The notes under the pieces: generated by a model | Database searches by the model: none | What the model saw: only the letters and a program-made list of their open reading frames with translations | What the model was told of the DNA's origin: nothing | NCBI GenBank assembly: GCA_046563655.1 | Contig: CM102285.1 | Location: 1,240,001 to 1,304,000, forward strand | Length of the DNA: 64,000 nt | Source: Yuukianura sp. NJ FZ-2021 | Taxonomy: Eukaryota | Direction: 5' to 3' | In this document: piece after piece, positions 19,809 to 61,992 of the stretch | Position numbering within the stretch: the stretch's first letter is position 1 | Layout of the letters: every line of letters begins with the position of its first letter | Translations under genes and position numbers: made by a program

Positions 19809-19815
19809 GTAAGCC

Positions 19816-21371: not shown

Positions 21372-21595
21372 TAATTCGAGTGAATGGGCAGAGGAGGTTT
21401 AGTTGTAGAAGATGTAAGAAGAGTTACGCTCAAAACGTATCACTCACGCGACATATTCGTTACCAATGTGGTGTTGAAATTGGAGAATTTGAATGTCGAT
21501 ACTGTGGCAGAAGAAGTAAATTACTTCAGAATTTGAGGTCACATGAAATGACATGCAGAAAGAAATTGGCCAAGTTGAAAAAACTAAAAAATTAA
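21372..21595 (+). CDS. Alternative terminal exon, CCHC+C2HC fingers
   Basis: CRRC..HIRYQC..CRYC..HEMTC. Selector tataaactcaatggcga at 21285-21301. Confidence 0.85.
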
Positions 21596-21912
21596 GAAAA
21601 AAAATTTCTACTAAAAAAATTGTAAATTTTAGTTTGAATTTTAGTCTTAAATTTTACTTGTTTTTTGTACACTTTGTTCAAAGTTGGTCCTAATGTTTTT
21701 GAATTAAGAAATTAAAAATTCGTAGATTAAAATTTTTTAGTGTTAATTGGAAAATGTGGGATTCAGATTGCAAAATGTGGCTTTTGAAGACGTGTGAGTA
21801 AAGTCAAGGTCGCTCTGATTGATTGGCATGTTTGCTTGGAGGCAAAAAGTTTCAAAATTTCTTTTGAGATTCAAAATTTTCGTGTTCAGGGTTTTGGTTT
21901 TTGAGTTATGAC

Positions 21913-22419
21913 CAGGGCTGCAAAAAATATTTACTAAAAACCCCCAAAATATTTATTGAAATATTTACTGAAAAACGGCACTATATTTAAGAACATATTT
22001 ACTAACCAAGTCAATATTTACAAAATTTTACCTTGAAATCACATAAATTCAGTTGGCATTTGTTAATTTGTCACTGATGCGTTCAACGCAACCGGGATTT
22101 TGAGTATTGCTAACCTGAACTATATTTTCTTTCTTGGGTTTAGAAGTCAACAGGATATCGAATTTGATTAAGGATGGCTTTGCTGTGTCTTTATCGGTTG
22201 AAAAAGCAAAAATTGTTAACCGAGGATGACAAATGTCATCAATATACCGAAATTTTGGTCCGAAAAACACTGAAACGGCTAAAAATTTACAAAAAATATT
22301 GATTATTTTTCAAAAACAGTCAGAAATTTAGAAAAATATTTATATTTTTTAAAATGGCAGAATATTTTTTTTAAATATAAAAATATTTAATATTTAAGAA
22401 AATATTTTTTGCAGCCCTG
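21913..22419. mobile_element. hAT-like MITE
   Basis: TIR CAGGGCTGCAAAAAATAT; 8-bp TSD gttatgac (21905-21912, 22420-22427). Confidence 0.9.
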
Positions 22420-22452
22420 GTTATGACGGAAGGTTTTAATTTTTTGCCGTAG

Positions 22453-22724
22453 ATATTTGGATTTTGACTGATTCGGAATGGGAGCCTTATACAAGGACGC
22501 TGTCAATGGGTGCAGGGCGGCTAAAGTGTCGTTACTGCGGAATGATGTTTAGGCAGGGAAGTGCGTTGTGTCGACATCGCAAGTACAGTTGTCCTAACTT
22601 GCAATATGAATTGACAACTTGTGACTTATGCGGAGCTCGTATGAAACCGAGGTCACTCATGGACCATAAAAGAGCCACTTGTAGAGTTGTCAGGGCCAGA
22701 CATAATGCAGAACCTGGAAGTTAG
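22453..22724 (+). CDS. Alternative terminal exon, double finger
   Basis: CRYC..HRKYSC..CDLC..HKRATC. Selector tcaaggtcgc at ~21804. Confidence 0.85.
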
Positions 22725-23018
22725 AAGTTACCTTAGGAATTTTGCAATTTACTGAAGTATAGGTTGGATTTTTTGGTTTTGAGTAATTGTGAGATTTATG
22801 TATAATTAAACTGTAATTTTGGTGAAAACAAACATTAGTTTTGAAATAGTTTTTTAATGTTTTGAAAACCGGATATTTTTAGTTGAGTTTGTTTGATATT
22901 GAGAGAACTTCACAAGGTCGCTATTCCGTTGAATTTGAGTCAGAAATTTCTCTTTTTATGTCTGTTTGTTTAGTTTTTTTTTGTTAACTATTTTTGAATC
23001 GAAATTTTGAAATTTTAG

Positions 23019-23263
23019 TTTTGGATTGGAATAATTGCGGTGGTTCGGGGATTGGGGAGAGGATTTTTCTGAAACCTGTTTTGAAAATGACCGGAAGTAG
23101 TGGAACAGCGAAGCCACATAAGTGCTTATGTGGATACGGATCAGAACGAAACTATAATCTGAAGAGACACCAAGAAATTTGTCAGCAGTATCGCTATTTG
23201 AGAGCGAAATCTGAGCATACGCATAGCGCGAATCAGGAGAAATCTCGACGAGGGCGCCACTGA
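23019..23263 (+). CDS. Alternative terminal exon, single C2HC finger
   Basis: CLC..LKRHQEIC. Selector gaacttcacaaggtcgctat at 22905-22924. AATAAA at 23406. Confidence 0.75.
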
Positions 23264-23726
23264 ATTTGTTTCATACGATTTTGCTATAAATGTTAAGTAT
23301 AAGTGGTACAATTTTTGCTAATTTCAGGAATTTCCGACGCTGATTAATTGCATTTAAAAGGCATATATGTATGCTAAGGAACTTAATTAATATATACTGT
23401 AGCATAATAAATTTATTGAATAACCTAACCTAAGTTTATATTGAAGAGAGACTTTTTTCTCGAAATTTGAATTATAAACTGTCTTTCGGACTTCAAGTTT
23501 TGGATTCTTGGTTGAAGAAATTTCGCAAATTGGGTCGAGTAGGTTTAAATTGAAGTACAATTTTGTGAGTAGTAAATTTCTATGTTGGCGGTGAATTTTG
23601 AGTTTGAAGTGTGTTTGGGCTGTTTGGCGTTGGTGTGTTTGGTGGCAATTTCAAGAGCCGCTATGGCATATTGTTGGACTGTGCAAATATTTTTTTGCAA
23701 TGTTGCAAATGATTGATTGTTGTAAG

Positions 23727-23947
23727 GGTTTTTGGGACGTGGGTTGTGCTGTCCGAGATGTGGAAAACGGTATCATGCCCAGCAGAAGTCAGCATTTGAC
23801 AAGCACATCATGTACGACTGTGCAAAAATTCCGCCAAAATTTAAATGTGGACTTTGCGATTATGTGGCACGAAGAACGACTTACTTTGAAGCTCATTTCA
23901 AACGGTATCATCCGCAGAACGAAGTTTCGTATTTCAAATACTACTAA
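23727..23947 (+). CDS. Alternative terminal exon, YDC-type CCHC+C2H2
   Basis: CPRC..HIMYDC..CGLC..HFKRYH. Selector cgctatggcatat at ~23659. Confidence 0.85.
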
Positions 23948-24223
23948 TTGGTGGATTTGGAATTTTTATTACGTAGTTTAAGAAAAAATGTAGGTGCTAA
24001 CGATATGTGCAGAACCGTCTAAATCGATGGATTTTGAATTTTTTAGATGATTTTAAAACCGATAGAAAATATTTCATTTTAGCACGTCAATTACGCAAAT
24101 TTTCCGTTTTCCAAAAGCGGCAATTTTTTTTAAAGTACAAAACCATTTCTCAACACGCCATGGTGTATAATAAACCGAAATTTGGAAAATTTCTTAGTGA
24201 AACGTAGGTTTTTTTTTTCTTAG

Positions 24224-24411
24224 GAAAGTTGAAATGTACGCGTTGTGGAAAACGGTACTCGGCTGAGCAGAAGTCAGCTTTTGCGAATCACGTAACTTAC
24301 GATTGTCCGTTCGTTGAGCCAAAGTACAAATGCATCAAGTGCAAATACTTGTCCAGAAGGAAGAAACCGCTCATGCAGCATTTGGCAAAGTTCCATAAGG
24401 ACATTTTTTGA
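24224..24411 (+). CDS. Alternative terminal exon, YDC-type
   Basis: CTRC..HVTYDC..CIKC..HLAKFH. Selector ttctcaacacgccatggtgtata at ~24147. Confidence 0.85.
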
Positions 24412-24591
24412 AAATTTTGAAATTTGTAATTTTTGGAAATTTATATCTATGAGATTTGTTTTGGAACCTGTAGAAGGAGCCATGGCGTATACATGCTTTA
24501 TAGATTAGATTTTGCTTCTTTATGGAAATGTTAGGCTAATCCTGGTTTCTGATTGGTAAGTTAGGTTAATTCTCGTTTTTGATTGGCTTAG

Positions 24592-24785
24592 GCTGCGTAA
24601 CATGTGGCCTATGTGGAAAACGGTATTTGGCAAGAGAGAAGCGGGCAATTCGAAACCATTTTCTGTATGACTGTCGACAAATTGAACCGAAATTTAAGTG
24701 TGAGTTTTGCCCGTATTCGGCTAGGAGAAAGAAAGGACTGATGGTACATCATGCTCGATTTCATTCCAACAGTGTTCCAATATGA
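24592..24785 (+). CDS. Alternative terminal exon, YDC-type
   Basis: CGLC..HFLYDC..CEFC..HHARFH. Selector gccatggcgtata at 24479. Confidence 0.85.
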
Positions 24786-25077
24786 AACGTTTGAATTTGT
24801 GTAGTTTTTATATGGAATTTTGGCTTTAAAGATTACGTTAAATGAATGTGTTTTTAACATTTTAAACTATGCAAAAATAAATTTTACGAAAAGTAATTGC
24901 GATTTTGTCTGATCCTGGAACCAAAGGTGGTGCAATTCTATTTTTGTATTGGTTCTAAATGTGGTTGAATTTTTTAAATTTTTACAATGGTGAAGCCAAG
25001 GGTTTTTGAGGGATTTTTGAAAATTTGATTTTAACATTTGGTGTTCTTTTTTTCTCCATTTTTATTTTCTCGAATAG

Positions 25078-25265
25078 CCTCGGGCTATGCATGGCTTACA
25101 TGGCATGCACCACCGCCTTTTCGTCGTGTTTCGTTTGGTCAAGTTGTTGGCAAGAATTTTAAATGTAAGATATGTGGTCATGAGCAACCGGACTGACGTA
25201 GGCGCCGAGCACATGAAGATAGACATCGAATGGCGTTGCTGAAGAAAAAATTGGTGTCTAGGTAA
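25078..25265 (+). pseudogene. Decayed cassette
   Basis: FKCKICGHEQPD* has an in-frame TGA before HEDRH; the first finger is lost. Confidence 0.6.
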
Positions 25266-25490
25266 TTTCTGTGTAGGAAATGTCCATAGTTATATTTGGT
25301 GCACGTAGAACTGATAAAAGTTCACAGACACACAAGTGTAAGCGACTCCTTCAGTTAAATTAAATTTAGCGGTAAAATATTTTGTGTTGTAGTGTACTTT
25401 GCATTTAAAAAAAAATCAAAAAAAAAAAAAATCTTATTTCGGTAACTTTTGATGTGCGCCATGCCATGGAATTTTCATTTTATTTTAAAG

Positions 25491-25714
25491 CTTCTTGTTT
25501 TGTTTGTGCAATAGACGAAGCAGGATTACGCTGTAGATGGTCAAGGCGCGGAAATTTGTATCTAACTGATTCAAGTACTCGTCGAAGTCACGATTCTGCT
25601 GAGGTTTATCCGAAGCTTAAATGTAACATTTGTGGTCGTTGGGGATTTGCTGGTCGTCAACTCAGAAGACACTATTATTATCGCCATCCTGATGAATATA
25701 GAAGGAAATATTAG
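25491..25714 (+). CDS. Alternative terminal exon, degenerate first finger plus C2H2
   Basis: CNIC..HYYYRH. Selector gccatgg at ~25463. Acceptor uncertain (25491 or 25515). Confidence 0.65.
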
Positions 25715-26012
25715 TGTTGAGGTAATCTTTGTGTAGGGAATGAGATATTTTAAAAGTTTTGTACCAAATTTGAGATTTCTGAGCTAGAACAATATTGTAC
25801 ACACTCACTTACGACTTTCTTTGTGTTTGTACTGGTTAAGTTGAATAAAAGTTTGGAAAAGATTGTTCTAAAGTTTCCCCGACAGATATTGTTTATGTTG
25901 CAACTTTTCAAGTGAGCCATGGTGTACGAAGTACAAAGTGTATCATTGGGATATTTGATTTCGAGTTTATATTGGTTTTAATTGCCGGTTTTTTTTCCTT
26001 TTTTTTTATTAG

Positions 26013-26218
26013 ACTTGTGCTGTACATTATGTGGAAAGTGTTATCCACTACGTAAGAAAGATTCGTATAACCACCATGTTCTTTACGATTGTCGAAAACT
26101 TGATCCGAGGTTCAAGTGCGACGTATGTGGTCATGTGACACGAAGAGGTTGTGCACTCAAAAAGCACTACCTAAGTCATCATCCGATAGAGTATAGAAAA
26201 AAATATTTTTATGTCTAG
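26013..26218 (+). CDS. Alternative terminal exon, YDC-type
   Basis: CTLC..HVLYDC..CDVC..HYLSHH. Selector tcaagtgagccatggtgta at ~25908. Confidence 0.85.
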
Positions 26219-27017
26219 GAAATCGTCTTTTAACTTTTGTACTTACGCCTACAGCCTAGAAGGATATTTGTATATTGCTGGCCGAACATCTTGTTGTAAT
26301 GTTGAAAAACTTGCAATAAATTTTAGACTTTTTAACAACCCGGAGAAAATTTTAACTTTTTCGTCCGGTTGAGTTTAAAGACAAATATTTCTGGTGAGGT
26401 AATCTGTTGAGGCAATTGCTGTTGAGGGAATCCTGTTGTTAAATGTTTGTCCACGTCTTGTACAAAATGGTTGTGTACTTAAACTCTGGGTTATTTTATG
26501 TGAGGCAAAAGAAATTTTTTAAACAATTCGGTTTTTTTTTCGACACTTCATAAAGAAATTTTTTTAAACTTTTTTTGTGGTACTTTTCAGTGTATTTGGG
26601 TGATTTTAAATCGGGTTTTGGAAGTTGTGACGATGGTTTCTGTTATCATGTAACGCACGAGTCAAATGCACGGTTTAGGTTAGGTTGACCGTGTGAAAAA
26701 ACAACTGTTTGAGTGCAAATTTTGTGCGTATAAGTCAACCTGTTACTTTAATCTTCAACAACATCATAAGACGCTACATGAGGGGTTTCCATTTGAGTAA
26801 AATAAGGTAGTTTTTGAAAAAATTTGGTTAGGTTTTCAAAACCTAATGTTATGGTGTTGTTTTTTTCGTTTAGAGTCTTTCTGTGTGCAATTTTTGTTGA
26901 TCTCAACAATAACATTGTTGAGGCGCCATGGCTTGTAAGCTCTGTGAAAAGCTGAAGTTTTTGGTCGAAATAAATTTGGTGTTTAATTCTTTTTTCTGTA
27001 TTTTGAAACATTTGTAG

Positions 27018-27226
27018 AGGAACTTCTAAATGGTAAATACGTCTGTAGAAGATGTGGCAAACGGTTTGCTCATCACCAAGGAGCTACGTATTTCTCACAT
27101 ACGAATTATGACTGTTCGAAAATTGAACCAAAATTTGAGTGCGAATTCTGTGGCTTCAAGACAAGACGCCAATATAATCTCAAATCACATGTCGCGAGAC
27201 TTCATGGAGGATTTCCGATTCAGTAA
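27018..27226 (+). CDS. Alternative terminal exon, YDC-type
   Basis: CRRC..HTNYDC..CEFC..HVARLH. Selector gaggcgccatggcttgtaagctc at ~26920. Confidence 0.85.
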
Positions 27227-27410
27227 CATAGGAGCAGATTTTAAATTTTTGAAGTTTTTCTACTAATTTTTGTTTGTAAAGTTCGGACCTTGTTTTGAAA
27301 AAAAATTCTCTTCTCTTAATTTTGTAAGGCGCCATGGCTAGTAAGCTCTTTCTCGTTTTAAATAACGTTTCTGGTGTAATTTTTTGTCGTTTTTTTTTAA
27401 ACGTTTGTAG

Positions 27411-27607
27411 TGAAAAATTTGTATTGCCCATACTGTCCTAGGGCGTTTCCGCGCCACCGAAGGTCAGCGTGGAGGAAACACCGAAATTTTGACTGTTTAA
27501 ATATTCCGCCAAGGTATCCATGTAAATTTTGCACCTACAAATCCAGACGTCTTTACAATCTGCAAACACATCACGCGAGACGCCATCCGGGCTTAGACTT
27601 TGAATGA
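27411..27607 (+). CDS. Alternative terminal exon, YDC-type
   Basis: CPYC..HRNFDC..CKFC..HHARRH. Selector aaggcgccatggc at ~27326. Confidence 0.85.
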
Positions 27608-27741
27608 ATTAAATTGGCGCCAACAAATTTTTAATGTTTTTTATAAGTTCCGTTGATTAAGTTATTGAGGAAGCCATGGCGTATAAATAATAAATTTTGA
27701 AAGTTTTTCGGTTTTTAAAAATTTGGAATTTTGTGTTTCAG

Positions 27742-27977
27742 TTGTCAATAAGTGTAACCTTTGTGGGAAATGTTTCTATGCATATCAGAGGTCAGCTATC
27801 AAGAGTCACAGGTTGTATGATTGTTTGAAAATGCAGCCACAATTTAAATGTCGTTATTGCAACTATAGCGCGAGACGGAAAACTGGACTTCAAAAACATC
27901 ATGTTCGACGGCATCCGACTTTCAAATTTGTTTTTGAACAACTTCAAAAACCTAAGTGTGATATCGAAGAAATTTAA
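27742..27977 (+). CDS. Alternative terminal exon, YDC-type
   Basis: CNLC..HRLYDC..CRYC..HHVRRH. Selector gccatggcgtataaa at 27673-27687. Confidence 0.85.
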
Positions 27978-28145
27978 TTTGTAACAATTTTTATGAATTC
28001 GTTCCGAATTTTGCCCTATTTCAGTATTTTTTTAAAACTTGTAAACTGCTGAAGGAAGCCGTGGTGTATAAAATTTTCATAAAAGAAAGTGAAATTTGTA
28101 GTTTCAAGTTTGGAGAACTTGGTTTTCTTTTGTTGTGTGTTTCAG

Positions 28146-28396
28146 CTTTCTTCAAATCTTGTCATCTCTGTGGCAAAGGTTTTCTGCGTCGTCAGAGTTC
28201 GACGTATTCTAATCATATGTTGTACGACTGTTTAAGTATTGCACCGCAGTATAAATGTCCATACTGTGACTTTGCTGCAAGACGTAACTGTGGACTCACG
28301 AGGCATCATGTTAGGGTACACCCTGATTTGCAGTTTGTTTACAGAAAACGTAGAAATGCTGTTCCTACTTTAGAAGATTTTCCTCCTGACTACTAA
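28146..28396 (+). CDS. Alternative terminal exon, YDC-type
   Basis: CHLC..HMLYDC..CPYC..HHVRVH. Selector gccgtggtgtataaa at ~28058. Confidence 0.85.
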
Positions 28397-28689
28397 TTTA
28401 TTTTCTTGTTTTTTCAAAATTTTGATTCCAAATTGTTCCTTTTGGTTTGGATTTTTATATGTTTTAAAATTTCTTAAGGCGCCATGGTTTGAAATTCTTA
28501 ACGTTTGAAAGTAAAGCGGTCGAACTTTTTAGAGTGGAAATTTAACCTGCGTGTAATATATTTCTTTTAAATCAATGCATACATGTGCCATGTGCCATGC
28601 CAACAAATTGGAAAAAGGGCGCCATGGTATATACTAATACTAAGGTGTTGGGAGAATCTAATGTTAATGTAAAGTGTTGGTGTTTTTAG

Positions 28690-28898
28690 CCAGTAGGGAG
28701 AGGATAAGGTGCTCGCGATGTGGAAAAGTGTATTTTCGGCATCAGAAAAGCGCCATGGCTTTGCACAATTGGTACGACTGCCCGGAATTGGCGCCAAGAT
28801 ACAAGTGTAAAATTTGTGGTACTCTGGCTAGGCGAATGGAGCGATTGAGAAAACATCATGAAAAATATCATCCAAACGTCCCATTTGAATCACGATGA
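28690..28898 (+). CDS. Alternative terminal exon, YDC-type
   Basis: CSRC..HNWYDC..CKIC..HHEKYH. Selectors cgccatggtatata at ~28620 and ttaaggcgccatggt at ~28474. Confidence 0.85.
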
Positions 28899-29031
28899 TA
28901 CTTTAAAAGTTGTCAAGTGATGATAGATTTGATAAAAATTCACGAATTTGAGAAATTTAGAAATTTTTTTCCGGTGTAGTTTTCAATAAAGTTTTCTTCT
29001 TTTTCGGGATATATGAATTTAAAACTTGAGT

Positions 29032-29070
29032 GCCATGGCATATAAATCAAAGCGGCAAAAAGAATCTCGG
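29032..29070 (+). promoter_or_regulatory. Longest selector seen (pairs with the 5' half of the docking site)
   Basis: gccatggcatataaatcaaagcggcaaaaagaatctcgg vs docking reverse complement gccatggcatataaactcaaaggcaaaagaagttcgg. Confidence 0.85.
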
Positions 29071-29148
29071 ATCTCGTTTTTGGGAAATTTTCCTCAAGTC
29101 AAAAAATTTGGTTTTGAAAACACGGGTGTGTCTTGTGCCTGTTTTTAG

Positions 29149-29360
29149 TATTCGTGTATTCATGCCCGCGTTGTGGCAAGTCATATCATCGGCGTCAAAG
29201 ACCAGCTTTTGAAAATCATGTTCGGTATGATTGTTTGAAAATTCCGCCAAAATTTCAGTGTGGTGAATGCGACTTTGTCGTCAGAAGGAATCACGCTCTC
29301 AAAGCCCATTATCTTAAGTTTCATCCAACCAAAAGTATTCCGCCTTTTGCATTCACTTGA
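29149..29360 (+). CDS. Alternative terminal exon, YDC-type
   Basis: CPRC..HVRYDC..CGEC..HYLKFH. Confidence 0.85.
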
Positions 29361-29769
29361 TTGAGTTAGCCTAATAGAGTTATCTTAACATCTAACATGG
29401 TTCAGGTTATGATTAAAGTTTAATTTTTAGCATGGTGAGCTTAATAAACGATGGCAGTTTTTAAATCGACGTGAAACCACGAAAATGGGCTTTCGGATGT
29501 TGGAATTTCCAATTCCACAACAACATCGTTTTTTTTTTCGCGCTCAGGGCGCATCTTTGCCAGCTTTTTTCTGCTAATAGACATATTGAACAATTGAACA
29601 GAGTTTTGTTAATTTTTGGGATTTTTAAAATTGTGTTTGTGTTTTTGGGAAATAAAGTTATTTGGCTGTTATAGATTTTGTTGTGAAGGGAGAAGTGGAA
29701 GCCATGGCATATGAATTTTCTGTTTAAGAAATTGTAAATTTCGTAATGTTTGTGTCCGTTTGGGTGCAG

Positions 29770-29987
29770 GAGTGCAGTGCATCTATTGTGGAAAGAAGTA
29801 TCGAGCACGGACGGCAGCGTACCGCAGTAAAGCGCTTGAGAATCATATGACCTACGACTGTAAACTCATCCCGCCAAGATTTAAATGCGGACTATGTGGA
29901 TTCGTTGCTAGGAGAACAACTAGGTTTCATTATCATTTTCAAAAGTCTCATCCGCTGATGGTAGTTTCCTACAAAAAGTTGTATTGA
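29770..29987 (+). CDS. Alternative terminal exon, YDC-type
   Basis: CIYC..HMTYDC..CGLC..HFQKSH. Selector gccatggcatat at 29701-29712. Confidence 0.85.
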
Positions 29988-30208
29988 GCTGGTCACAAAA
30001 TTTCGAAAGTTTACGGTACCGAGTACCGGTTTTCAGTTCGGTGAATTCAGATTATTAGTATGGTGCTTGTTGGATCTTTCGTTTGTAAGGTGTCATGGCA
30101 TATGTTTTCTTTGGATTGAGAAGCATGCTAAATTTTGTAGTAAGGTAAAAAAAAACGTAGAATTTTAGAGTTTTTTGAATTTGTTTTTCGGATTTTTGAA
30201 ATGTGCAG

Positions 30209-30397
30209 AAGTTGATAGGTGTGACCGTTGTGGGAAGACGTATCGCGGTAAAACGAGATCTCGCTACATGCCGTTCTACAATCACGTGAACTACGATTGT
30301 CCCATGATTCCCGCCAAGTATAAGTGTAAACTATGCCCATATTCTGTACGTACGTAGGCACTACATGCTAAAAGTACACTACACTCGATATCATTAA
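30209..30397 (+). pseudogene. YDC-type cassette frameshifted by a 4-bp duplication
   Basis: gtacgtacgtagg gives SVRT*; removing one tacg restores SVRRHYMLKVHYTRYH*. Confidence 0.7.
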
Positions 30398-50300: not shown

Positions 50301-53300
50301 GAAAACGTTTTCGTTGTTCAATTCCAAACTGTACGAAGTTATATTCCTCTAGAGGAGCTTTGGTACGACATATGCGGTACGTTTTCTAAAAAAAAAATTC
50401 TAAAGAGAGTCTATGGATACAAACATAATTTTGTTTTTGTTTTTTGAAAAAAAAAGGTTTGATTTAAGAGTTACACAAAATTTTGAAAACTTTTGTGCTT
50501 ATTAGTTACGAATGCAACAAGGATCCACGGTTCAACTGTAACCTTTGCGGACATAAGACCAAACGGATGTCGGATTTGCGACGACATACGCAGATTTGTA
50601 AAGGTTATCCGTCTCGTCAATCCCTGGCGTTCAGACGATAAGTTAGTTTAAGTCAAGGTCAATGATAGGGTCAAGGTCATCTGGTTAAGGTCAAAGTAGT
50701 TTTAGTAAGGTCAAGGTCAAAAGTTCTGTTGGCTGGGTGATTATTAGCTTAAAGTGATCGTTTTGTTTTGAATTTTGAAAGTTGGAGTTATAAATAATAA
50801 ATATCGCTTTATTCATTCCATCTTAAACCTCTGTTTTTTTTAACTAAATTGTTAAAATTTTAATGTTTTTGAACTAACATGAGCAGGACCCGGAAACGTT
50901 CCTTGATTTTTTTAAATGTTCACTTCTGTGTTTTTCATTGTTGTTTAAACCATTTTATGGACTTTTACTGTATTTGTGGTGAACCTCTTAAAAAAACTTG
51001 GCGGAAATTCAAAGTTTAAAAAAATTTGGCCGGCCATTTTTGTCTTTAGGAAAACGATTTCGTTGTCCCAATCCCGATTGTCGTCGGAGTTATTCACGTA
51101 AGGGAAGTTTGGCTCGTCATTTGCGGTACGTTTTCAAAAAAAAAAAAGTATTGAAAACTTCATACATGATTTCTAAAATTTCTCTTTAGTTTGAAAAGTA
51201 ACTTTTTGAAATTCTTTGTGCTTACGCTTATTAGTCATGAATGCAACAAAGATCCACAGTTGAAGTGCAATCTTTGCGGACATATAACCCTGCGGAAGGC
51301 GGATTTGCAACGACATGCGCAGACTTGCAAAGGTGTTCCGTCACGCCAATCTCTTGCGAGACGACGACGGCTTGGACTAGATTAAGTTAAGGGCATGTTG
51401 AATACCTTTGGTCAGGTCAAGGTCAGTTTCGTAAGGTTGTTTAGATGAGGTAGTGTTTGTTAAGGAGTTCATTTGGATTAGTGTACAGTAATTTTTTTGT
51501 GTTCTTCGACGCCACCAATTTAAGACTATTTTATAATTGGAACAATTTTGCAACATTTCGTATGAAAAGCGTTGGTTTTTTAAATTGTAGAACTGTTTTG
51601 CGAACCACTCAAGGTTGCTTAGCTTTTTGTTTTGAAATGTTAACGATTTTGTAAAATCTGAACAGGAAAAAAAATGGAGAGATTGTACATATGCGTCTGT
51701 GGTCGTTTCTATGCAGTCAAAGCAAGTTTGACAAGACATATGAGGTGTGTTGAGTTAACAACAAAAACAATCCTCTTTTTTCGGTTTTTGAATTTTTTGA
51801 AAGAATAATAAAATCTGTGAAACCTTTTTTCAGATTCGAGTGTAACAAAGAACCGCAATTTCAGTGTCGTCGAGGTCACAAGTTTGCACACAAAAGCAGT
51901 TTGCGTAGACATTTACACATGTCACCCGAATGTATTTGAATTTGAACAAAGTCAAGTTTCGTAAAAGCTTCAAATTTTAAAATTTTTCGAAACATTAAAT
52001 TGGAAAGATTTTTAGCTTTGTTCTTTTCTCTGAAAGATTTACAAGTTTTGACGTGGTGAATTTCTCAGTCGTGGCAGAAGCAATTTTTTTTCTTTTATGT
52101 TTTTGAAATTTTGAAATTTAGGGAAATACTTTCCGTGTCCCAACCTCCTTTGTCCAAAAGTCTACACTCACAGAAGCAGTCTTTGGCGTCACGTCAAGTA
52201 AATACATATTTGCCCATACTAAATTTTTGTCTGCGACCTTACAGTAAACTAAACTTTGTTTTGTTTAGATTCGAATGTGGAAAACCTCCACAATTCCGTT
52301 GCCGCCTGGGTCACGTTTTCACTCGCAAGTCAAATTTGATGAAACACTTACAAACTTCGTTTGACTGCAATTAATGCAATTCCCAATCCCAATGCCGGGA
52401 TTTTTCAAGTTTTTCAAAACAAAATTTTTTTTCAAAATTCGGATTTAGTGTTTACCCAATGAGCAACTTTTGTCGTATTGTAACAATTCATCTGCCACCT
52501 TCAAGAATATAGTTGTAAATTAGAATATTTTTTTGTGTGTTTCATTTTTTTTGAACAAGGAGTAAAGTTGTTTTATTGTGTTGAATAATATTTCAATGGT
52601 GAACCACTCAAACTCGCCCAACTCATAGACAAAAAATTTGGTTTCTAAACCAAAGACTATAAAGACTATTTTTGGTTTTAAAACGTTTTGAATTTTTAAT
52701 TTTAGAAAAACGACCAAGGCATAAATGTCCGAAATGCCCAAGTTCTTATGCTACCAGAAAGTCCTGGAGACGTCATGTGAAGTACGCGATGTAAACTAAC
52801 CCAAAAAATTTACCGTAAAACTTCTACCAAGTCCCCGAGCTATATGTAAAGTCTCAGCCTTTAACATTCATAAGTGGCCAGCGTCTATGTCTGTTTCGAA
52901 ACTCGGGATTTGTTAAAAACTGGGAATTATTAGAAGTTTTACGGTATACTTTTTATTTGTTGCTGTTTAGTTTTTCGTAATATTTTTTGATTTGTAGACT
53001 CGAGTGTGGTCGGGAGGGAACATTTCAATGTGAATATTGTGATTTGAAATTCAAACGAAAGTACAGACTTCAGCGGCATCAAAGGCAGAAACATTGTACG
53101 CTTCATGCACCAGTTCATGTTGTTGTTCCAGAAAAGAAAGCAGTTTAAAGTTGTTTCAAAAGAACCTCGAAAAGACAACGAATTTGAAAAAAATTTCGTA
53201 ACCGAAACATAATTTCAATTCTACTATTTTGTACTTGAGGTTCTGTTTTCAGTCTTTTTCTGAAATTATAGTTTTATGTTTTGGATTTCTGTTTAATGTG

Positions 53301-53733
53301 GTAAACCTTTTGAACTGTGTCATACGTCAACTGGAAATGTGTTGACTATTTTGCTGTTGATGTGATTGACGTTCATGTAATGTATTGATGCTGCTAAGTT
53401 TCAATAAATGTTGACGTTCTGTATTATAGTTGTAGTCCGTCGGAAGGTTTTCACTTGTCCTACTCCGAACTGCAATCGTAAATACACCAACGAACAGAAA
53501 CTGATTCGACATTTTAGGTAAACATGATTTCTCAAAATTTCAAACAAATTTCAAAATTTCAGAATTCAAATCTACGGAGCCTTTTGAAATTGTGTAGATA
53601 CGTTTGCGGCAAGCCGAAAATATTCAGTTGTGAATGTGGCTACAAAGCCTTCCAAATGTCAGATTTGAAGAAACACCAACAACGAGTCAATAGTTGCCGT
53701 GCATTTTCAATGCCTTCTCGTTGGAAGAAATGA
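50301..53733 (+). CDS. Six split cassettes: 50301-50641, 51050-51385, 51666-51939, 52122-52374, 52706-53148, 53430-53733
   Basis: lola-like C..C..RHx(R/K)|xEC(N/G)KxP.F.C..H. Selectors gtggtgaacctct at 50228 and 50976; others at ~51600, 52051, ~52597 and ~53298. Confidence 0.82.
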
Positions 53734-54003
53734 ACAAGATTGCTAATTGAGTTGCTTCTTGAAAAAATTAACAGGACTCAAATTTCTGTTTTCAAAATAA
53801 ATTTTTCTGAAGTTTTTTTTTCGTTTTGTAACTCGCGATGATCAGTTTTTTGATGATTGGAGAAAAATTTGGAAAAGTTGAATTGACCTTTGAAGTGTAA
53901 TTAAAAAAGTAAACTGTTTGTGGTGACCTCTCATGCTTTTTTGAAAAGTTTTTCTACCTCTAATGAGTTTTGGAACTATGTTGAGCTATGTAATTTTGCA
54001 TAG

Positions 54004-54368
54004 GGACTGTGAGGCCTGTGCGCATGCGCAGTAGCTATGCAGAATCTCCAGAGTACTTGCCTACTGTTTTAGATGGAAGATTCTTTACTCCTTTGCCGTC
54101 AGTTCCATTTGTAGGAAATCTCACCGATAGACCAGCAATCAAACGCAGAGCAATCTGTCTCTCCTGTGGAAAGATGATCTGTGGGGTCATGACCTCCAAT
54201 TTTATTACTCATTTGAAGGTAAGGGCACCACACTTAATTAACTCAACTCGTTTAAGAACTGATTATGTTGATGAAGTAACTGTTGAACTTTTTTAGCGAG
54301 TGCACCAGGCAGCTTACATCGAATACAAGGCTCACGCTCAGGCACAAAGAAGGTCTCTTCCAGTTTAA
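54004..54368 (+). CDS. Split cassette, BED-finger-like (54004-54218 + 54297-54368)
   Basis: RFF..AICLSCGKMI..TSNFITHLK|RVH with a phase-0 intron. Selector gtggtgacctctca at ~53920. Confidence 0.8.
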
Positions 54369-55044
54369 ATATTGTACTGAAATGTTCCTAAAGGTCAAAG
54401 GTCAACTAAGATTCCACTTTGGTTATGCTGCGGCGCAATAAGATAGTTTCATTTAGAATTTTTCATAGTTGCAACCGACGGCTTACTAATTTGAATTACG
54501 TAAACAGCAAACACGTAGGCAAACAACAACAAATACTAAAATCGGCATGTTTACTTAAGAACAAAAAGTATTCAAAGCTACATATCTCGACGTTATGGAA
54601 AACCGTGTGCAAGTAGTGTTTATGTATTTGGTGTGTACGTAATTGTAGAACTTGGTGGATCATGTTTGTGGATAATAAAAAATTGGTTTTTGGGGAAAAA
54701 AACTATAAAATTCAAATTACGTGGATCCGATTCGAAATCGAATGTTAGTTTTTGCAACAACTTGCGATCTTTTAAATTTTCAACCGTTTCAAATTTGAAG
54801 TTTCACAACATATTTTGTCAAAAATTGGAATTTTTGAAAAAGTTTTATCAACTAGCTAAGAAATTCAGTATGGATGATGGAGATAGTCTCAAATTATTTT
54901 GGAATCTTGCCTACTACATTTGTTCTTACCGTTTTCCTTTTCCATTGTGACTTTCTACCGATACCAAGCAGCACAGCCAGTAAATTGTTAATATTTGTAG
55001 TGATAATTAATACATTATGCTATTATAAATCTTTCTAACCATAG

Positions 55045-55325
55045 GATCAAAGCATCTGGAGTTTGTCAAAAGTTCTTGGGGCGGGAACTTGTTGATTTGG
55101 AAAGGCTTTATGTTTTCGAGAATTAAAGCGATTGGCGGTAGTCAGTACTGGAGATGCACTCGCTACAGAGATCGCCACTGCACTGCCAAGTGCATCACAC
55201 GTTTTGGCAAATTTAAGTCTGAATCTGGAGGGCACAATCATGAAGTAGAGCCAGAAGAAATTGAAAAGCGACGGAAGTTGAGTTTTTGGAGAGACAGTGT
55301 CCGAAATGAGGAAATTTTACCATAA
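55045..55325 (+). CDS. Alternative terminal exon, FLYWCH (mod(mdg4)-type)
   Basis: FVKSSWGGNLLIWKGFMF..YWRC..CTAKCIT..HNH. Confidence 0.85.
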
Positions 55326-55740
55326 ACTGACTTGAAAGCATGCTGTATGCTGTTTCTTTATCAATTTAACTACATGTAATTACACTAAATTTTAAGGGCA
55401 GTTTTATGAAGTGTAAGAATAGTTCATATGCAGTAATAGCATTTTTTGTATCTCAGTTTAACAAATTTTGGGATTAACAAATTTTGTGGACATGTGTGAG
55501 AAATTTCTCTTAAAATAAAATTTGGTAGCGTTGAAATTTTTGAGATCGTTTTTCTCTTCAATTTTTTTTCTGAAAGACTTTCTTATGGTGGAGTTTTTTT
55601 CTGAAACTGCGGTAGGAATGTTTGGTTTATGAGAAATGGCGCTGATTTAAAAAGTTTTTTGATTTGGTAATCTCTCAAGGTGTGAAATTTTGTTAGTTTT
55701 TCTACTTAAAATGTTTCCATATGTTTTGTTTTTGATTAAG

Positions 55741-57375
55741 AACTGAATTTGCGATACAATTGCACAACTTGTTGGCGAAGCTACTTGCACCACACAAGCC
55801 TCAATCGTCATCGAAAGTAAATCAAAACATGTTTCAATTTTAAGAAGTAATTCAAAAAATTTCAAATTCTGGAAATTTCAAAAATTGCCGTTTCGTTCTA
55901 GATATGAATGTGGAAAGGAGCCGAAATTTAGTTGTGAGCATTGTGGTAAAAGATTTCACCAGAAAAGTAACCTAGCACAGCATCTCGTCAACTGCAATAC
56001 CAAGAAAGCTAAACACCGAATAAACCAACACTAAAGAAGTTCAAATTTTTCATTTTGTTTGTAAAAAGTTTCAAAATGTTTTCTTTTTGAATTTTTTTTA
56101 AACATAGGTCTTTGAGTTTATCAATTTTGCTGAGAGCTGCTAATTTCTTTCACTCTTTTTTCGTTTTTGAATAAAATATGTTCAATACTGTGAAGTTGCC
56201 GGTGGTAACTAGGCTGAATTGAAAAAAAAAATCACTTCAGTTTTTAAAATTTTCGTTGTTCAAAAACCTGAAAAAAATTTTCCATTTTGAAATTGAACGT
56301 GGAGAATCTCTCGAGGTTGCATTGGAAAGAAATTGTTTTTCTCAACAGTTTTTTTTAGAAATTCATTTGTTTAATTTAGTGGATTACGACGACGGCCGTC
56401 ATAAATGTCCAAATTGTTGGAGAACTTATAAGCACAGGAAACATCTCCAGCGTCACGTAAAGTATAGCATCCATATTAAATTCAAAAAAAAAAATTAAAT
56501 TTCTTAAAAATTTAGGGATTTTTGACTTTTGTATAATAGATATGATTGTGGAAAAGAACCTCAATTCATGTGCGTAGAATGTCATCATAGATTTCGTCGA
56601 AACGACCAACTCGAAAAACATCTTCTTAAAATGCACGGTTACATATTGTAAACCGACTTTACGTCCACTTTTTTAAGTGAAAATATTTTGAAAAAAAAAT
56701 TTGCTCCAAAAATGTTCCGGAGCTTTCTGAACCGGTTATACAAAATGTTAATTTGAAGCGGTGAACCTTTGAATAAAATTCGAAACAGTTTTCTGTTTAA
56801 GTGTTTTTCTTTTGTAAAAGTTTTACATTCCGGAAATTTCTTAGGTAATTTCATATCTAAATTTCCCCCATGTATCAAGAAGTTTTTAAAATTTCGAAAG
56901 TGGAGCCACATTTTCATGTTTTTTTTGTGGATTACGTTGGCTCAAAGCTGTTGATGTATTTCAAATCATAAATTCACTTTAAGTTTCAAAAATTTTTCGA
57001 AAAGTATTTCATTTTGAATTGGAACGTGAAGAATCTCTCAAGGTTACAATGGAAAGAAACTATTTTGCTGTGGAGTGTTTCTTTAAAATTTATTTAATTT
57101 AGTGGATTACGACGGTCGTTATAAATGTCCAAAGTGTTGGCGAAGTTATCAGCACAAGAGAAACCTTCATCGTCACTTAAAGTATAACATCCATATCAAA
57201 TTCAAAAAATTTCTTCTTTGAAATTTCTTTAAAATTTGTGAAATGTTGACTTTTGTATTATAGGGATGAATGTGGAAAGGAACCTCAATTTGTGTGTATC
57301 GAATGTCATCATAGATTTCGTCAAAACAACCAACTCAGAAAACATATTATAAAAATGCACGGTTACTTGTTGTGA
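55741..57375 (+). CDS. Three lola-like split cassettes: 55741-56034, 56380-56651, 57103-57375
   Basis: CxxCWRxYxH..L.RH.K|x(E/D)CGKEP.F.C..C..H. Selectors at ~55666, 56296-56320 and ~57023. A gutted cassette remnant lies at ~56758-56950. Confidence 0.85.
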
Positions 57376-58292
57376 ATCAACTTAAAGTAAGAAACGTCCA
57401 ACTTTTTTATGTATATAAATTTTTGAAGAAAAAAAATTGCTCTAAAATGTTTCGGAGCCTTCTGAACCGATTATACAAAATTTTAATTTGAAGTGTGGTG
57501 AACCTGTCAATAAAATTTAGAACTGTATTCTATTAGTGTTTTTCTTTGTAAAAAGTTTTACATTACGGAAATTTATTAGGTAAAAGGTACGCATGCCCAA
57601 CATGCTCCAGAACGTATGGTACTAAGGGCGCTCACAGCAGACATATCAAGTATGTACGCATGTAAATTTCCGTCATGTATTCAGAATTCTTTAAAATTTC
57701 AAAATTTGGAACATATTTTGATGTTTCTTTCTTGAATTAGATATGAATGTCAGCAGGAACCAAAATTTGTTTGTGAAACTTGCGGTTACAGAGCCAAGCG
57801 AAGTGATTTGCTGCTCAAACATTTCAGATACTTGTTGTGAATCAACTTAAAGAAGAAACGTCCAACTTTTTTATGTATATAAATTTTTGGGAAAAAAAAT
57901 TGCTCTAAAATGTTTCAGAGCCTTTTGGACCACCGATACAAAATTTTAATTTAGAGTGTGGTGAACCTGTCAATAAAATTTAGAACTGTATTCTATTAGT
58001 GTTTTTCTTTGTAAAAAAGTTTTACATTACGGAAATTTATTAGGTAAAAGGTACGCATGCCCAACATGCTCCAGAACGTATGGTACTAAGGGCGCTCACA
58101 GCAGACATATCAAGTATGTACGCATGTAAATTTCCGTCATGTATTCAGAATTTTTTAAAATTTCAAAATTTGGAACATATTTTGATGTTTCTTTCTTGAA
58201 TTAGATATGAATGTCAGCAGGAACCAAAATTTGTTTGTGAAACTTGCGGTTACAGAGCCAAGCGAAGTGATTTGCTGCTCAAACATTTCAGA
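57364..58292 (+). repeat. Very recent ~465-bp tandem duplication (57364-57828 / 57829-58292)
   Basis: Near-identical units, each containing a selector and a cassette. Confidence 0.92.
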
Positions 58293-59533
58293 AATTCTAA
58301 AAAAGGATGCGGACTTACTTTCTAGTGGCGAAAAATCAAACTATCAACCTAACTATTCAACTAAACTATCGTAAATGCTTCGTATAGATATTTACCATGG
58401 CTGTTCAAAATTCTAATTCTGTTGGAGACTTGTTTTTAAAAAATTTTTAAATTTGGACGTAATCTTGACAATGTCTGAGGAAAACTTTGAACTTCCAATA
58501 AATTTTAAGTAAAAATTCATTTAGTTGTGTGAACCTTTCAATCTCCTCTTTGATTGATATGATCAGAGCTTAAACGTTGGTTGTTATATAAATATTTTTG
58601 AATCGTTAACTGTTAAATTGGTTGTTCAAATTTGTTTAGATGGGAGATACCCATGTGCAACATGTGGAAGATCTTATGGCGCTTTGCAAAATTTGAGGAG
58701 ACATATTCAGTAAATGATAGACACGAGTTTTCATTTTTTTTTCAAAATTTTTTCATTCAATTTTTTTCAATTAATTTTTACTTTACTTTGTTTTTGTTGC
58801 ATTAGGTATGAATGTCAAGTGGAACCGAAATTTGTTTGTAAAACTTGCGGTGGCAGATACAAGCGAAACGATGCGCTCCTCAGGCATTTTAGAGTTTCCA
58901 AACATCGGTGTTGACATGGCCAAGCTACCACAATTTCACAGATAATTTTCTGAATCGATTACTTTAACGTTTAAGATTTCATGCGATTACTTTGTTGGTG
59001 GTATCCAATAAAATTGAACTCTATTGCCTGTTAAACTGGATTGTAAGGTTGCTAGGTTAGGCGGGAGTCTGAACCGATTAGCAATTTTGCACTCACTTCA
59101 GTAATAGATTGCGTTCTTTTTAAAGAATTTTGCAACGGGGTTAGTCTTACTTGGGTGACTTGTTATCTTTAACCCCGATTGGCAATGCACAAACTTTTCC
59201 ACTTTTTGCCACACCGTTTTTTCTATTTTTGGTACTTTGGAATTATTTTAGGCAGGCAATACCAATGCCCCACATGCCCACGCGTTTATGCTCATGTGGA
59301 TTCGTGGAGAAGACATACCAAGTAATTACTTGTAATTTCAAGTTGCTTTTTCAAAATTTTTAAATCTCAAACAGGGTTATTAATTTTTTTTCCATAGGCA
59401 TGAGTGCCAGAAGGAACCCAAATTTGTGTGTCAATTTTGCGGCTCCAAATTCAAACGACGGGATAGTCTTCTTAAACACCGGAGATTACCAAATAGGTGT
59501 AGCCGCAAAGTCGATCCGCTGCAGTCTCTGTAA
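57580..59533 (+). CDS. Four lola-like split cassettes: 57580-57840, 58044-58325, 58640-58914, 59252-59533
   Basis: Y.C(P/A)TC.R.Y..RH..|(Y/H)ECQ.EPKFVC..C. Selectors gtggtgaacctgtca at ~57495 and ~57958, and gtgaacctttcaa at ~58529. Confidence 0.82.
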
Positions 59534-59860
59534 TTTAATTACAATTGAATAGCCTAACATTAGGTCAAACTAATCTTATCCTAACAATTGGTCCACAAAT
59601 TAATAAAAAGATTCAATTCGAATAACAACAATCGAATCGAAATAATCAAATCTACATAAATACAAGTAAAAAATACTAACTAAAATAAGGCAGCCTCAAT
59701 TTATGCTTATTTTTCCTTCGTCGTTTACGAAATTCACTTCATTCTGATTTGGTGAACCTCTCAAAACGTCTAACGTAATTCATGGCTCAAAAAATTGTTG
59801 TTGCATATTTGTTTTGTAGAATCAAATTCGGGTTGGTGTTTTTTTTTTCAACTTTCTTAG

Positions 59861-61992
59861 CAGGAAACATATACATGCAACTGGATGGGAAAACGTCTAC
59901 GATTCTACCCATCTTTGACGGTAGATATTTCACTCCTGTCGCACCGATTCGGTCTAACAAGCCAAATAGTACTGGATCCAAGATGTGGAAACGCAGAGGG
60001 CGTTGTCAGTCTTGTGGGAAAATTATTAAAGGGGTCATGACCTCCAACTTCTACATGCACTTGAAGGTAATGATCTCCTTACCACGCGGATTTTCTTAAA
60101 GCGAAACTACTTTAAGAATTTTTTTAAAAAATCGGCTTTTGACAGAGAATACATCCGGAGGCATATGAAATGTGCAACAGGGAGCGATGGAGAAGTCGGG
60201 GAATAGAGCTGGATTGAAAAAAAGGCGCAACAAATCTTCAACTTTGCCAAATGTTTTGTAGATTTTAAAAAAATTGAATCCTTTATTGAATCGATTTACT
60301 CTTGTTTACTATTGGTATTGTACTGAATCGACTCATTTTGTTCCTGTAATACCCAATACAGATTTTGAAGTAACTCGAAGTTTGTGGATTTGTACTATCG
60401 TTTGTACTTTCAAATTATAATGAACGTTTGAAATTGATGGTTGTGTCTTGTAATCTCATCTTGATTTTGTAAAAAGCAATTCAAAAATTATTGATTACGT
60501 TGGTGTAAATAAAAACTTTAGTGGAAATAGAAGAAAAATTAACCCGTTTTAGTTGTAATTTTCTATTTACACCTTCGCATACTAAAATCGGAATGATTTC
60601 GGAATTTTCATTTCAAATTTTTATGTTTTTGATGGTTTTATGGTGAACCTCTCATGGCTGATCGTTTTTGGAATTCTTAGAATTTTGGATTTCCTTGAAT
60701 TTTTTTGTTTTCGAATTTTTAGTTAGCGTACTTGGACCTAGAATTTTTAATTGGAAGTATTTCCAAGTGGTCGCAAGAACTGATGTTCATGTGCGTGGAT
60801 TTCGAGAGTTCAAGTACCAAGCAGTTTGCAGTGCTTGTGGAACTACAATCACTGCATACATGACTTCTAATTTTCTTCGTCACTTGAAGGTTTTTGTCTA
60901 CAAAAAAAAATCGCGTCATTTTTGTTTAAAAAAGTATTTGGAGAAGTTTTTAAACTGAAGTTGTGGTTGAAATTTTTAGAAAATGCATCCGGAGCTGTAC
61001 TTGGAGTACGAGTCTGAGAACAAAGGAATGAATTAACGTTGGACTTCTACTACGTTGGAAACGATTTTTTTTATGTTTCTCTATACATATTCAAAATCTT
61101 TTAAATAAAGTGGATCCAAAACAAAGCTTTTCAAATTTAAACGTACCTTGCGTTGCTGCGTCCCCCGCCTGCATGAAATTGTGAACCGAAAAGCACCACC
61201 TCTGCATGAAATCCTTGGTTGAACCGAGAATGTCGTACCGCTGCCGGATTTTTTTGGATTGCTTGTTTACATTTTTTTATGTCTTTTTTTTTGCAATAAT
61301 AGTACAATGTGGACTTGGGACACAGAAAGGACGAAATCGAATTTTGCAGGATCGGTTTTACAAAATCATTTCAGCGGTTCGTCAAACCACGTCAAGGAAT
61401 AATCGGGTCAAAGTTCAAGCAGAGTGTGTCAAATGTGGCTACCTGGTTTCATCCAATGTCACATCAAACTTCATCAGACACTACAAGGTAAGTTACATCA
61501 TGGCAGTGTTAGGTTTACATCATAATACGACTTACGGCGTTAGAGAATTAGATGCTGCAAATTAGAACTTACCATGATAATTGTTACGATAAGTATTTAA
61601 AACAGCGCCCTAAAAATGTTTGATTTCTTCAAGCTATAGTTTATCTATTTTCAGAATGTCATTTTTCCGCTGTTTTTTTTTTTCGTTTTCACTCCAAATC
61701 TTAGGAAAAACTTAAGCTTTTGGAAAGCACGTTCTACATAATGTCTGTACAGAATTTCAAAAACTTCTAATTTCTAGGTTAACAGTACATAACTCAACGA
61801 TTTTTTTTTCAAAGTTGAAATGTCATTACGAAAAAAAAAAGCAGGCAAAGCTGTAAAATTTGACAAAGTTAAATTAAGTTTTGTTGAAAATACTTTTTAT
61901 TTGCTTTGTTACAGAATCATCATCCGGACATTTATCAAGATTTTAGCAAAACCTCAACTAATCGCAGTAGGAAAAGATCCCACCAGCGATGA
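59861..61992 (+). CDS. Three BED-finger-like split cassettes: 59861-60217, 60723-61036, 61303-61992
   Basis: (R/K)(Y/F)(F/Y)..CxxCG..TSNFxxH(L/Y)K|xxHP. Selectors tggtgaacctctcaa at 59750-59764 and tggtgaacctctca at 60641-60654. Confidence 0.8.

What the first reader, a model, noticed from the sequence alone, without database searches (positions are those of the whole stretch)
21372..61992. One BTB constant region joined to three unrelated DNA-binding fold families
Every cassette examined opens in phase 1, matching the donor, has its own stop, and many have a downstream AATAAA (e.g. 23406, 25844, 26315, 28985, 61104). The repertoire mixes lola-like CCHC+C2H2/C2HC pairs (the majority), FLYWCH-like exons (48223, 49845, 55045) and BED-like exons (54004, 59861, 60723, 61303). 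About 65-70 cassettes is well above the roughly 20-30 isoform scale known for Drosophila lola and mod(mdg4). Likely DNA-contacting residues differ strongly between neighbours.
Basis: partly seen in the sequence, partly recalled or inferred. Interest (0 to 1): 0.8.

Follow-up and report, generated by a model that had tools for sequence, protein, structure and literature searches.

The report
Lola-like gene, RNA-paired ending array
An arthropod transcription-factor gene has one shared front half followed by about 70 alternative DNA-binding endings; that layout is known from insect lola genes, but here most endings are preceded by a short sequence that can base-pair with one highly conserved intron element, which probably picks the ending used.

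Summary
The array is real. A BTB constant region (18454-19808) precedes 69 first-exon acceptors up to 61992: 53 lola-type finger pairs, 3 FLYWCH, 4 BED-like, 5 degenerate or unclear, 4 broken. Nasonia lola has over 180 endings (PMC5000498), and planthopper lola already joins one constant region to FLYWCH and to C2H2. BED and FLYWCH are proposed C2H2 derivatives (PMC1702500).

Its core occurs four times in the genome, always after a BTB donor. It is unchanged in relatives at 38-51% protein identity and absent from five paralogs with one or two endings.

Best reading: Dscam-like competing RNA pairing chooses one terminal cassette, unlike fly mod(mdg4), where pairing was excluded. No compensatory change or donor-to-cassette RNA junction was found; lola orthology is unresolved. 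This scan noted the same element before, here and elsewhere in this genome.

The parts
18454..18624 (+). Constant exon 1 (ATG, N-terminal half of BTB), gene B
   Evidence: Pfam BTB 45.1 bits; junction to exon 2 in an RNA contig
18712..19440 (+). Constant exon 2 (C-terminal half of BTB, Pro/Ser linker)
   Evidence: Pfam BTB 34.4 bits; open frame
19523..19589 (+). Constant exon 3 (acidic linker)
   Evidence: RNA contig junction 19589 to 19689, GT..AG
19689..19808 (+). Last constant (hub) exon; phase-1 donor GT at 19809
   Evidence: 362-aa constant region
19844..19880 (+). Docking site, starting 35 nt into the hub intron; reverse complement of the selector consensus
   Evidence: 26-nt core found 4 times in 98.7 Mb, each after a BTB hub donor; conserved in C7 paralog, L037, L043, variant in L040
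20357..20372 (+). Second conserved intron element, complementary to the 5' half of the dock (-31 kcal/mol), about 1 kb before the first cassette; possible decoy, timer or selector of cassette 1
   Evidence: also at 7480, in gene C and in L037; absent in C7 paralog, L040, L043
21372..61992 (+). Array of 69 alternative terminal cassettes (plus orphan second exon at 46892), each with own stop; selector typically ending 50-105 nt before the acceptor (median 69.5, n=58)
21372..31931 (+). Proximal single-exon cassettes: 15 intact CCHC + C2H2/C2HC pairs, 3 degenerate or unclear, 3 broken; selectors pair mainly with the 5' half of the dock
32496..59533 (+). Mostly two-exon lola-type pairs (37, plus one three-exon at 32496, one degenerate at 41069, one broken at 40502, one single finger at 33303); selectors pair more with the 3' half of the dock
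48223..48518 (+). FLYWCH cassette; selector 48116-48143 (-36.3)
49845..50128 (+). FLYWCH-like cassette (below Pfam cut-off); selector 49723-49772 (-29.3)
55045..55325 (+). FLYWCH cassette; no selector found (-18.6)
54004..54368 (+). BED-like two-exon cassette; selector 53919-53938 (-26.8)
59861..60217 (+). BED-like two-exon cassette; selector 59744-59787 (-38.8)
60723..61036 (+). BED two-exon cassette; selector 60626-60672 (-38.5)
61303..61992 (+). Last BED-like two-exon cassette (second exon from 61915); weak or no selector (-20.6)
52044..52077 (+). Strongest selector (-48.1 kcal/mol), before cassette 52122
5663..7006 (+). Constant region of paralog gene A (recent inverted duplicate of gene C, which lies upstream of the window)
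7042..7078 (+). Docking site of gene A, identical to that of gene B
7841..11400 (+). Short cassette array of gene A (about six units, end approximate)

Best explanation
A lola-type BTB transcription-factor gene whose hub exon is spliced to one of about 65 usable terminal DNA-binding cassettes. Choice works like Dscam exon 6, but on last exons. The docking site 35 nt after the hub donor base-pairs with the selector upstream of one cassette. That loops out the intervening array and brings donor and acceptor to within roughly 100-150 nt. The activated acceptor defines a terminal exon, so the transcript is cut at that cassette's poly(A) site. One dock per transcript means one ending per mRNA. Shown: the anatomy, the complementarity and its position, strand and intron specificity, the conservation of the dock, and its presence only in multi-cassette paralogs. 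Inferred: that the duplex forms in vivo, that it drives choice, that it acts mainly in cis, and the coupling to 3'-end formation.
For: Dock versus 220 nt upstream of 69 acceptors: mean -31.1 kcal/mol; 100 shuffled docks -19.3 +/- 0.7, best -20.9. At <= -26: gene B 58 of 69, gene C 37 of 46, C7 paralog 6 of 6, L037 13 of 17; antisense 0, 0, 0, 1; outside windows 47 of 846. Internal introns 0 of 36 against 27 of 36 length-matched upstream windows. Selectors follow the transcribed strand on both strands of the cluster. They precede 5 of 7 FLYWCH/BED cassettes, which are not recent duplicates of the finger pairs. Different selectors use different halves of one contiguous dock (rho +0.46 and -0.50 with position). 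The dock core occurs only after the four hub donors, is unchanged in L037/L038 and L043, and is absent from L007, L012, L044, L046 and the second gene of L037, which show one or two endings. All array cassettes lie downstream of, and on the strand of, a dock-bearing gene. Precedents tested by mutation: PMC6191721, PMC9258826, PMC12962786 (passages).
Against: No donor-to-cassette junction in the two shallow RNA runs laid on 18400-38399; the one contig on a cassette (35202-35449) is unspliced. No compensatory change: in L040, the only variant dock, the gene-B dock pairs as well or better than its own at 4 of 5 cassettes. The G-U test is modest: 67% of mismatches at C are T against 45% for shuffled references, but pair-breaking transitions are also somewhat enriched, cassettes are related, and the introns are T/G skewed. 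11 of 69 acceptors lack a strong selector, including cassettes 1 and 2 and FLYWCH 55045. The half-dock gradient is not seen in gene C. Distal cassettes need read-through of many poly(A) signals. In fly mod(mdg4), pairing was tested and rejected (PMC13490949).
Confidence: 0.62

Rival explanations
1. Same pairing, mainly in trans: cassettes or groups of cassettes are transcribed from internal promoters, and selectors on those RNAs capture the dock of a separate hub transcript, including hubs of the three paralogs that carry an identical dock.
For: Four hubs carry a letter-identical dock core. Mite sDscam-beta genes trans-splice across clusters through shared dock/selector pairing (PMC9258826). 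Fly lola and mod(mdg4) trans-splice (PMC4387717). It avoids read-through of many poly(A) signals.
Against: No array cassette lies on the opposite strand or upstream of a hub. The apparent orphans (3614; 14400 minus) belong to a BTB-less gene with its own donor and have no selector (-17.6, -17.1). Gaps between cassettes average about 300 nt (20,936 nt over 68 gaps). Only scattered, unconserved U1-type pseudo-donors were seen in the hub intron in a simple motif scan.
Confidence: 0.2
2. The motif is not an RNA duplex. It is a protein-binding or promoter element copied along with cassette duplication, and choice is protein-driven as in fly mod(mdg4).
For: No covariation. Some selector positions are more invariant than pairing needs (T at position 18 in 109 of 112). 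A promoter element would also follow the transcribed strand. PMC13490949 favours RNA-binding-protein motifs in flies.
Against: It does not explain one inverted, ultraconserved composite of both selector types at a fixed place after every multi-cassette hub and after no single-cassette hub, nor selectors before unrelated FLYWCH/BED cassettes.
Confidence: 0.12
3. Most cassettes are independent mini-genes or a decaying duplication graveyard, and only a few are spliced to the hub.
For: Four cassettes are broken and five degenerate or unclear; the region is rich in recent duplications; no junction reads.
Against: 60 of 69 have intact finger-coding frames; phase 1 for 54 of 67 best acceptors; dN/dS 0.13-0.73 in 18 of 19 measurable pairs; same layout in L037; cassette frames open directly on acceptors.
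Confidence: 0.06

Closest known systems
Insect lola (Drosophila 20 proteins, bioRxiv 10.1101/132027; Nasonia over 180 and Apis 58 alternates, PMC5000498)
   Same: N-terminal BTB, one hub exon, many one- or two-exon 3' endings with CCHC + C2H2/C2HC pairs (47% identity of one second finger to Nilaparvata lola); FLYWCH endings also occur on Nilaparvata lola.
   Different: The BTB forms its own clade (100/99) outside named lola. The hub is multiplied into four dock-bearing paralogs. There is an explicit dock/selector complementarity, which eight literature searches did not find described for lola; the fly mechanism on record is a U1-binding motif (PMC4387717).
Drosophila mod(mdg4)
   Same: BTB hub with over 30 alternative 3' endings, including FLYWCH (PMC4667647).
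   Different: FLYWCH is 3 of 69 here against 26 of 31; no cassettes on the opposite strand; complementarity is strong here and was excluded there (PMC13490949).
Dscam1 exon 6 docking site and selector sequences (PMC12962786)
   Same: One highly conserved intronic dock near the constitutive donor, a complementary selector upstream of almost every variable exon, further conserved intron elements between dock and first exon.
   Different: Here the variable units are terminal, multi-exon, poly(A)-bearing DNA-binding cassettes of a transcription factor; the dock sequence has no other copy in this genome.
Competing pairings in 3' variable regions of Drosophila PGRP-LC, CG42235 and Pip (PMC6191721)
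   Same: Dock/selector choice among 3' terminal cassettes; the nearest architectural precedent.
   Different: Those have 2-7 cassettes and are of recent, fly-restricted origin; here about 70 per gene, about 130 in the genome, with a dock unchanged across 38-51% protein identity. That paper has no BTB passage.
Mite sDscam-beta clusters (PMC9258826)
   Same: Several paralogs with compatible docks and selectors, allowing cis and trans use.
   Different: Mirror image: there the variable parts are 5' with their own promoters; trans use is shown there and untested here.

Membership tests
lola | Tramtrack-type N-terminal BTB with FxLRWN motif (PMC11426971) | tested here: inconclusive
   BTB by Pfam; nearest named relatives are Tramtrack-group BTBs at 55-63%; the motif reads IRLRWT, a variant
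lola | One hub exon followed by many alternative 3' endings | tested here: met
   genomic anatomy; use in RNA not shown
lola | Endings with CCHC + C2H2/C2HC finger pair | tested here: met
   53 of 69 cassettes; second finger C2HC 26, C2H2 17 of 43
lola | BTB orthology with insect lola | tested here: inconclusive
   own clade 100/99, not inside the lola clades; grouping with the wider lola clade not rejected, p-AU 0.53; 88/84 grouping in the first tree
lola | Trans-splicing helped by a conserved U1-binding motif in the hub intron (PMC4387717) | tested here: inconclusive
   simple 5-letter scan found only scattered pseudo-donors, not shared by genes A and B; trans-splicing itself not testable
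mod(mdg4) | FLYWCH in most endings | tested here: not met
   3 of 69
mod(mdg4) | Some endings on the opposite strand (obligate trans-splicing) | tested here: not met
   none in the array
mod(mdg4) | BTB orthology | not tested
   no mod(mdg4) BTB was retrieved (one search found nothing), so none is in the trees
Dscam-type dock/selector system | Single conserved dock near the constitutive splice site | tested here: met
Dscam-type dock/selector system | Complementary selector upstream of most variable exons, above chance | tested here: met
   114 of 138 windows at <= -26 over four arrays; controls
Dscam-type dock/selector system | Selectors compete for one dock | tested here: inconclusive
   predicted duplexes overlap on the dock, but 5'-half and 3'-half users could in principle bind together
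Dscam-type dock/selector system | Compensatory changes across species | tested here: inconclusive
   dock nearly invariant; the one variant (L040) shows none among 5 cassettes, whose selectors use mostly the unchanged half
Dscam-type dock/selector system | Disruption and compensatory rescue of splicing | not testable with these tools
   needs minigenes or editing

The most novel reading that the evidence does not exclude
Four paralogous BTB hubs with one identical dock draw on a shared pool of about 130 DNA-binding endings by pairing-guided trans-splicing, giving a combinatorial transcription-factor repertoire. Pairing would then be the ancestral way lola-type hubs find their endings, later lost or replaced in flies.
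Probability: 0.2. Interest if true: 0.88.

Novelty: new variant of a known kind. Interest (0 to 1): 0.68.

Why it matters
How the hub of lola- and mod(mdg4)-type genes finds one of dozens of 3' endings is open. [quoted passage not shown] This locus offers a 37-nt element and about 110 predicted partners, so the question becomes a simple mutation-and-rescue experiment. It would extend dock/selector choice from 2-7 terminal cassettes to about 70, in a transcription factor, and tie splice choice to poly(A) choice.

Tried and rejected
Dock as a pre-miRNA or known RNA family: no conserved hairpin (z -2.2 in gene B; +0.3, +1.3, +0.4 in three relatives); Rfam on 19700-20500 gave five chance-level bacterial matches. 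Dock as target of a separate small-RNA gene: no fifth copy with up to 3 mismatches. Orphan cassettes as proof of trans-splicing: rejected, they belong to a BTB-less gene with its own phase-1 donor. The orphan dN/dS row was out of frame and was redone. Covariation: looked for in L040 (none), in paralogs L006, L007, L012 (no dock) and at C3:4.68 Mb (a decayed copy of the array tail, no hub). FLYWCH homolog search found nothing. PDB searches gave only distant BTBs. The ESM Atlas gave generic arthropod BTB clusters. Sequence look-up of earlier scan notes was empty. The class of arthropod was not determined. No structure or complex prediction was run. Literature searches for a dock/selector system in lola or BTB genes found none; the library lacks most subscription papers, and I read no supplements (supplements of PMC6191721 list further 3' cluster genes and could bear on this).
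Full report
Observation. The window (G000:C3:1240001-1304000) holds two BTB constant regions, gene A (5663-7006) and gene B (18454-19808). Gene B's four exons give 362 residues and end in a phase-1 donor. Two of its three internal junctions appear in RNA contigs. Downstream I curated 69 first-exon acceptors, plus an orphan second exon at 46892. They sort into 15 single-exon, 37 two-exon and 1 three-exon lola-type finger pairs, 3 FLYWCH, 4 BED-like, 5 degenerate or unclear, and 4 broken. One of the 37 (57580) has a second finger cut short by a 465-bp tandem duplication.

Checks against chance. I chose acceptors for phase 1, so I retested with a splice-site score blind to phase: 54 of 67 best acceptors are phase 1. 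AATAAA is in 36 of 68 gaps against 24.4 +/- 3.7 expected; with ATTAAA, 52 against 36.5. Of 23 sibling pairs, 19 gave a dN/dS: 18 lie at 0.13-0.73 and one at 1.3; three were saturated and one pair identical. Pfam supports C2H2, two FLYWCH and one BED above cut-off; the others are below cut-off or, for two BED first exons, unmatched. Putative DNA-contact positions are diverse, assuming the canonical register.

Scale: Nasonia lola has over 180 alternates and Apis 58 from one hub exon (PMC5000498, passages); lepidopteran mod(mdg4) has 40-41 (PMC4667647, passages); fly lola has 20 proteins (10.1101/132027, passages). Mixing: two annotated Nilaparvata lola isoforms have the same constant region and end in FLYWCH (47 bits) or a C2H2 pair. 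Relatedness: PMC1702500 (passages) derives BED and WRKY-GCM1/FLYWCH from C2H2. So the finding as titled is a large but known kind of locus.

The unusual feature. Reading the sequence (noted, before any look-up of earlier notes) I saw that 19844-19880, just inside the hub intron, is the reverse complement of a motif upstream of the cassettes. RNAduplex against 220 nt before each acceptor gave a mean of -31.1 kcal/mol; 100 shuffled docks gave -19.3 +/- 0.7. At a threshold of -26, set after seeing those energies, 58 of 69 windows pass, against 0 of 69 antisense windows and 47 of 846 outside windows. Internal introns of two-exon cassettes score 0 of 36, length-matched upstream windows 27 of 36. 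Selectors end a median 69.5 nt before the acceptor. Five of seven FLYWCH/BED cassettes have one. Proximal selectors favour the dock's 5' half and distal ones the 3' half; total strength rises weakly with distance (rho -0.25, p 0.04, cassettes not independent); gene C shows neither trend.

Other copies. The genome has a third hub, gene C, on the minus strand upstream of the window, with at least 46 lola-type and 2 BED-like cassettes, and a diverged paralog on C7 with 7-8 BED-like cassettes. The 26-nt dock core occurs exactly four times in 98.7 Mb, once after each hub donor. Selectors pass in 37 of 46 and 6 of 6 windows tested there, on the transcribed strand only. Among 27 metagenome loci I examined nine for this. 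L037 and its near-copy L038 (51% protein identity) have the same dock and an array with 13 of 17 selectors. L043 (38%) has the same dock. L040 has a variant dock and BED-like cassettes. L039, L041 and L058 end before the hub donor. L044, L046, the second gene of L037 and own-genome paralogs L007 and L012 show one or two endings and no dock. A second conserved element at 20357 is complementary to the dock's 5' half and is shared by genes A, B, C and L037.

Results against. No compensatory change was seen in L040. The wobble test is only modestly positive: C>T 128 of 769 against G>A 50 of 722; A>G 38 of 613 against T>C 25 of 621; shuffled references are also skewed, 0.167 against 0.099 (122 of 138 windows aligned). 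Eleven cassettes lack a strong selector. RNA gave no hub-to-cassette junction, at very low cover.

Mechanism. Most likely the dock pairs with one selector, the array between is looped out, donor and acceptor are brought close, and the chosen cassette becomes the terminal exon and sets the poly(A) site. Pairing in vivo, cis action and 3'-end coupling are inferred from the tested precedents: Dscam1 exon 6 (PMC12962786, passages), PGRP-LC/CG42235/Pip (PMC6191721, passages) and mite sDscam (PMC9258826, passages). Trans use is the main rival, because four hubs share a dock and fly lola and mod(mdg4) trans-splice (PMC4387717, passages). Nothing here requires it: no array cassette is inverted, and the apparent orphans belong to a BTB-less gene. 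Fly mod(mdg4) has no functional complementarity (PMC13490949, passages), which is the contrast that makes this locus useful.

Membership. The BTB is Tramtrack-like, a type confined to arthropods (PMC11426971, passages). It forms a 100/99 clade with the paralogs and metagenome relatives, outside the named lola clade (49 rows); holding it together with the wider lola group is not rejected (p-AU 0.53). No mod(mdg4) BTB was available. PMC5094011 (passages) found mod(mdg4) only in neopteran insects. I file the gene as lola-type in architecture and fingers, with orthology open, and as working like a Dscam-type dock/selector system, with covariation and mutation untested or inconclusive. I did not determine the arthropod class; 'springtail-like' is the wording of earlier scan notes.

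Novelty. Eight searches found no description of dock/selector pairing in a lola or BTB gene; the library is incomplete and I read no supplements. Earlier notes of this scan report the same element on this window, on gene C and on the C7 paralog; they are not independent support. Verdict: new variant of a known kind, interest 0.68.

Noticed in passing
window about 3066-4091 (+) and about 14970-13922 (-); further copies on the minus strand at G000:C3:1228500-1240000: A BTB-less, dock-less derivative gene (139-141 aa model: linker remnant, basic stretch, one lola-type finger pair). Its cassette differs by 8 synonymous and 0 non-synonymous codons between two copies; it sits in a 3.15-kb tandem repeat. 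Could compete for DNA sites without multimerising.
   Followed up: partly
window 4715-11457: Gene A is a 97-99.6% identical inverted duplicate of the 5' part of gene C, carrying only its first few cassettes; partly an assembly effect is not excluded.
   Followed up: partly
window 62131-63999 (-): Open frame of at least 622 aa with no Pfam match, duplicated together with the last BED cassettes just beyond the window (73%) and at G000:C3:4.68 Mb.
   Followed up: no
G000:C3:1308600-1310200: Two further BED-like cassettes, copies of 60723 and 61303, lie beyond the minus-strand gene; the first keeps a selector (-30.5) but its exon is interrupted.
   Followed up: partly
window 46892-47000; 9550, 10083, 10745: Second exons without their own first exon suggest nested alternative second fingers within some cassettes.
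   Followed up: no
window 20001-62000: Steady G>C and T>A skew across the array on the sense strand, as expected for one long transcribed unit.
   Followed up: no
window 19852-19866: The dock can fold into a small weak hairpin; the two internal changes in L040 fall in its loop and bulge.
   Followed up: partly
L044:1300-1900: A dock-less paralog in a relative ends in a homeodomain-like sequence instead of fingers (by eye; label recalled, not tested).
   Followed up: no
window 1-350 and 1752-2103; 49519-49640: A 352-bp 99% inverted repeat, possibly a mobile element, and a 24-bp tandem repeat between cassettes.
   Followed up: no
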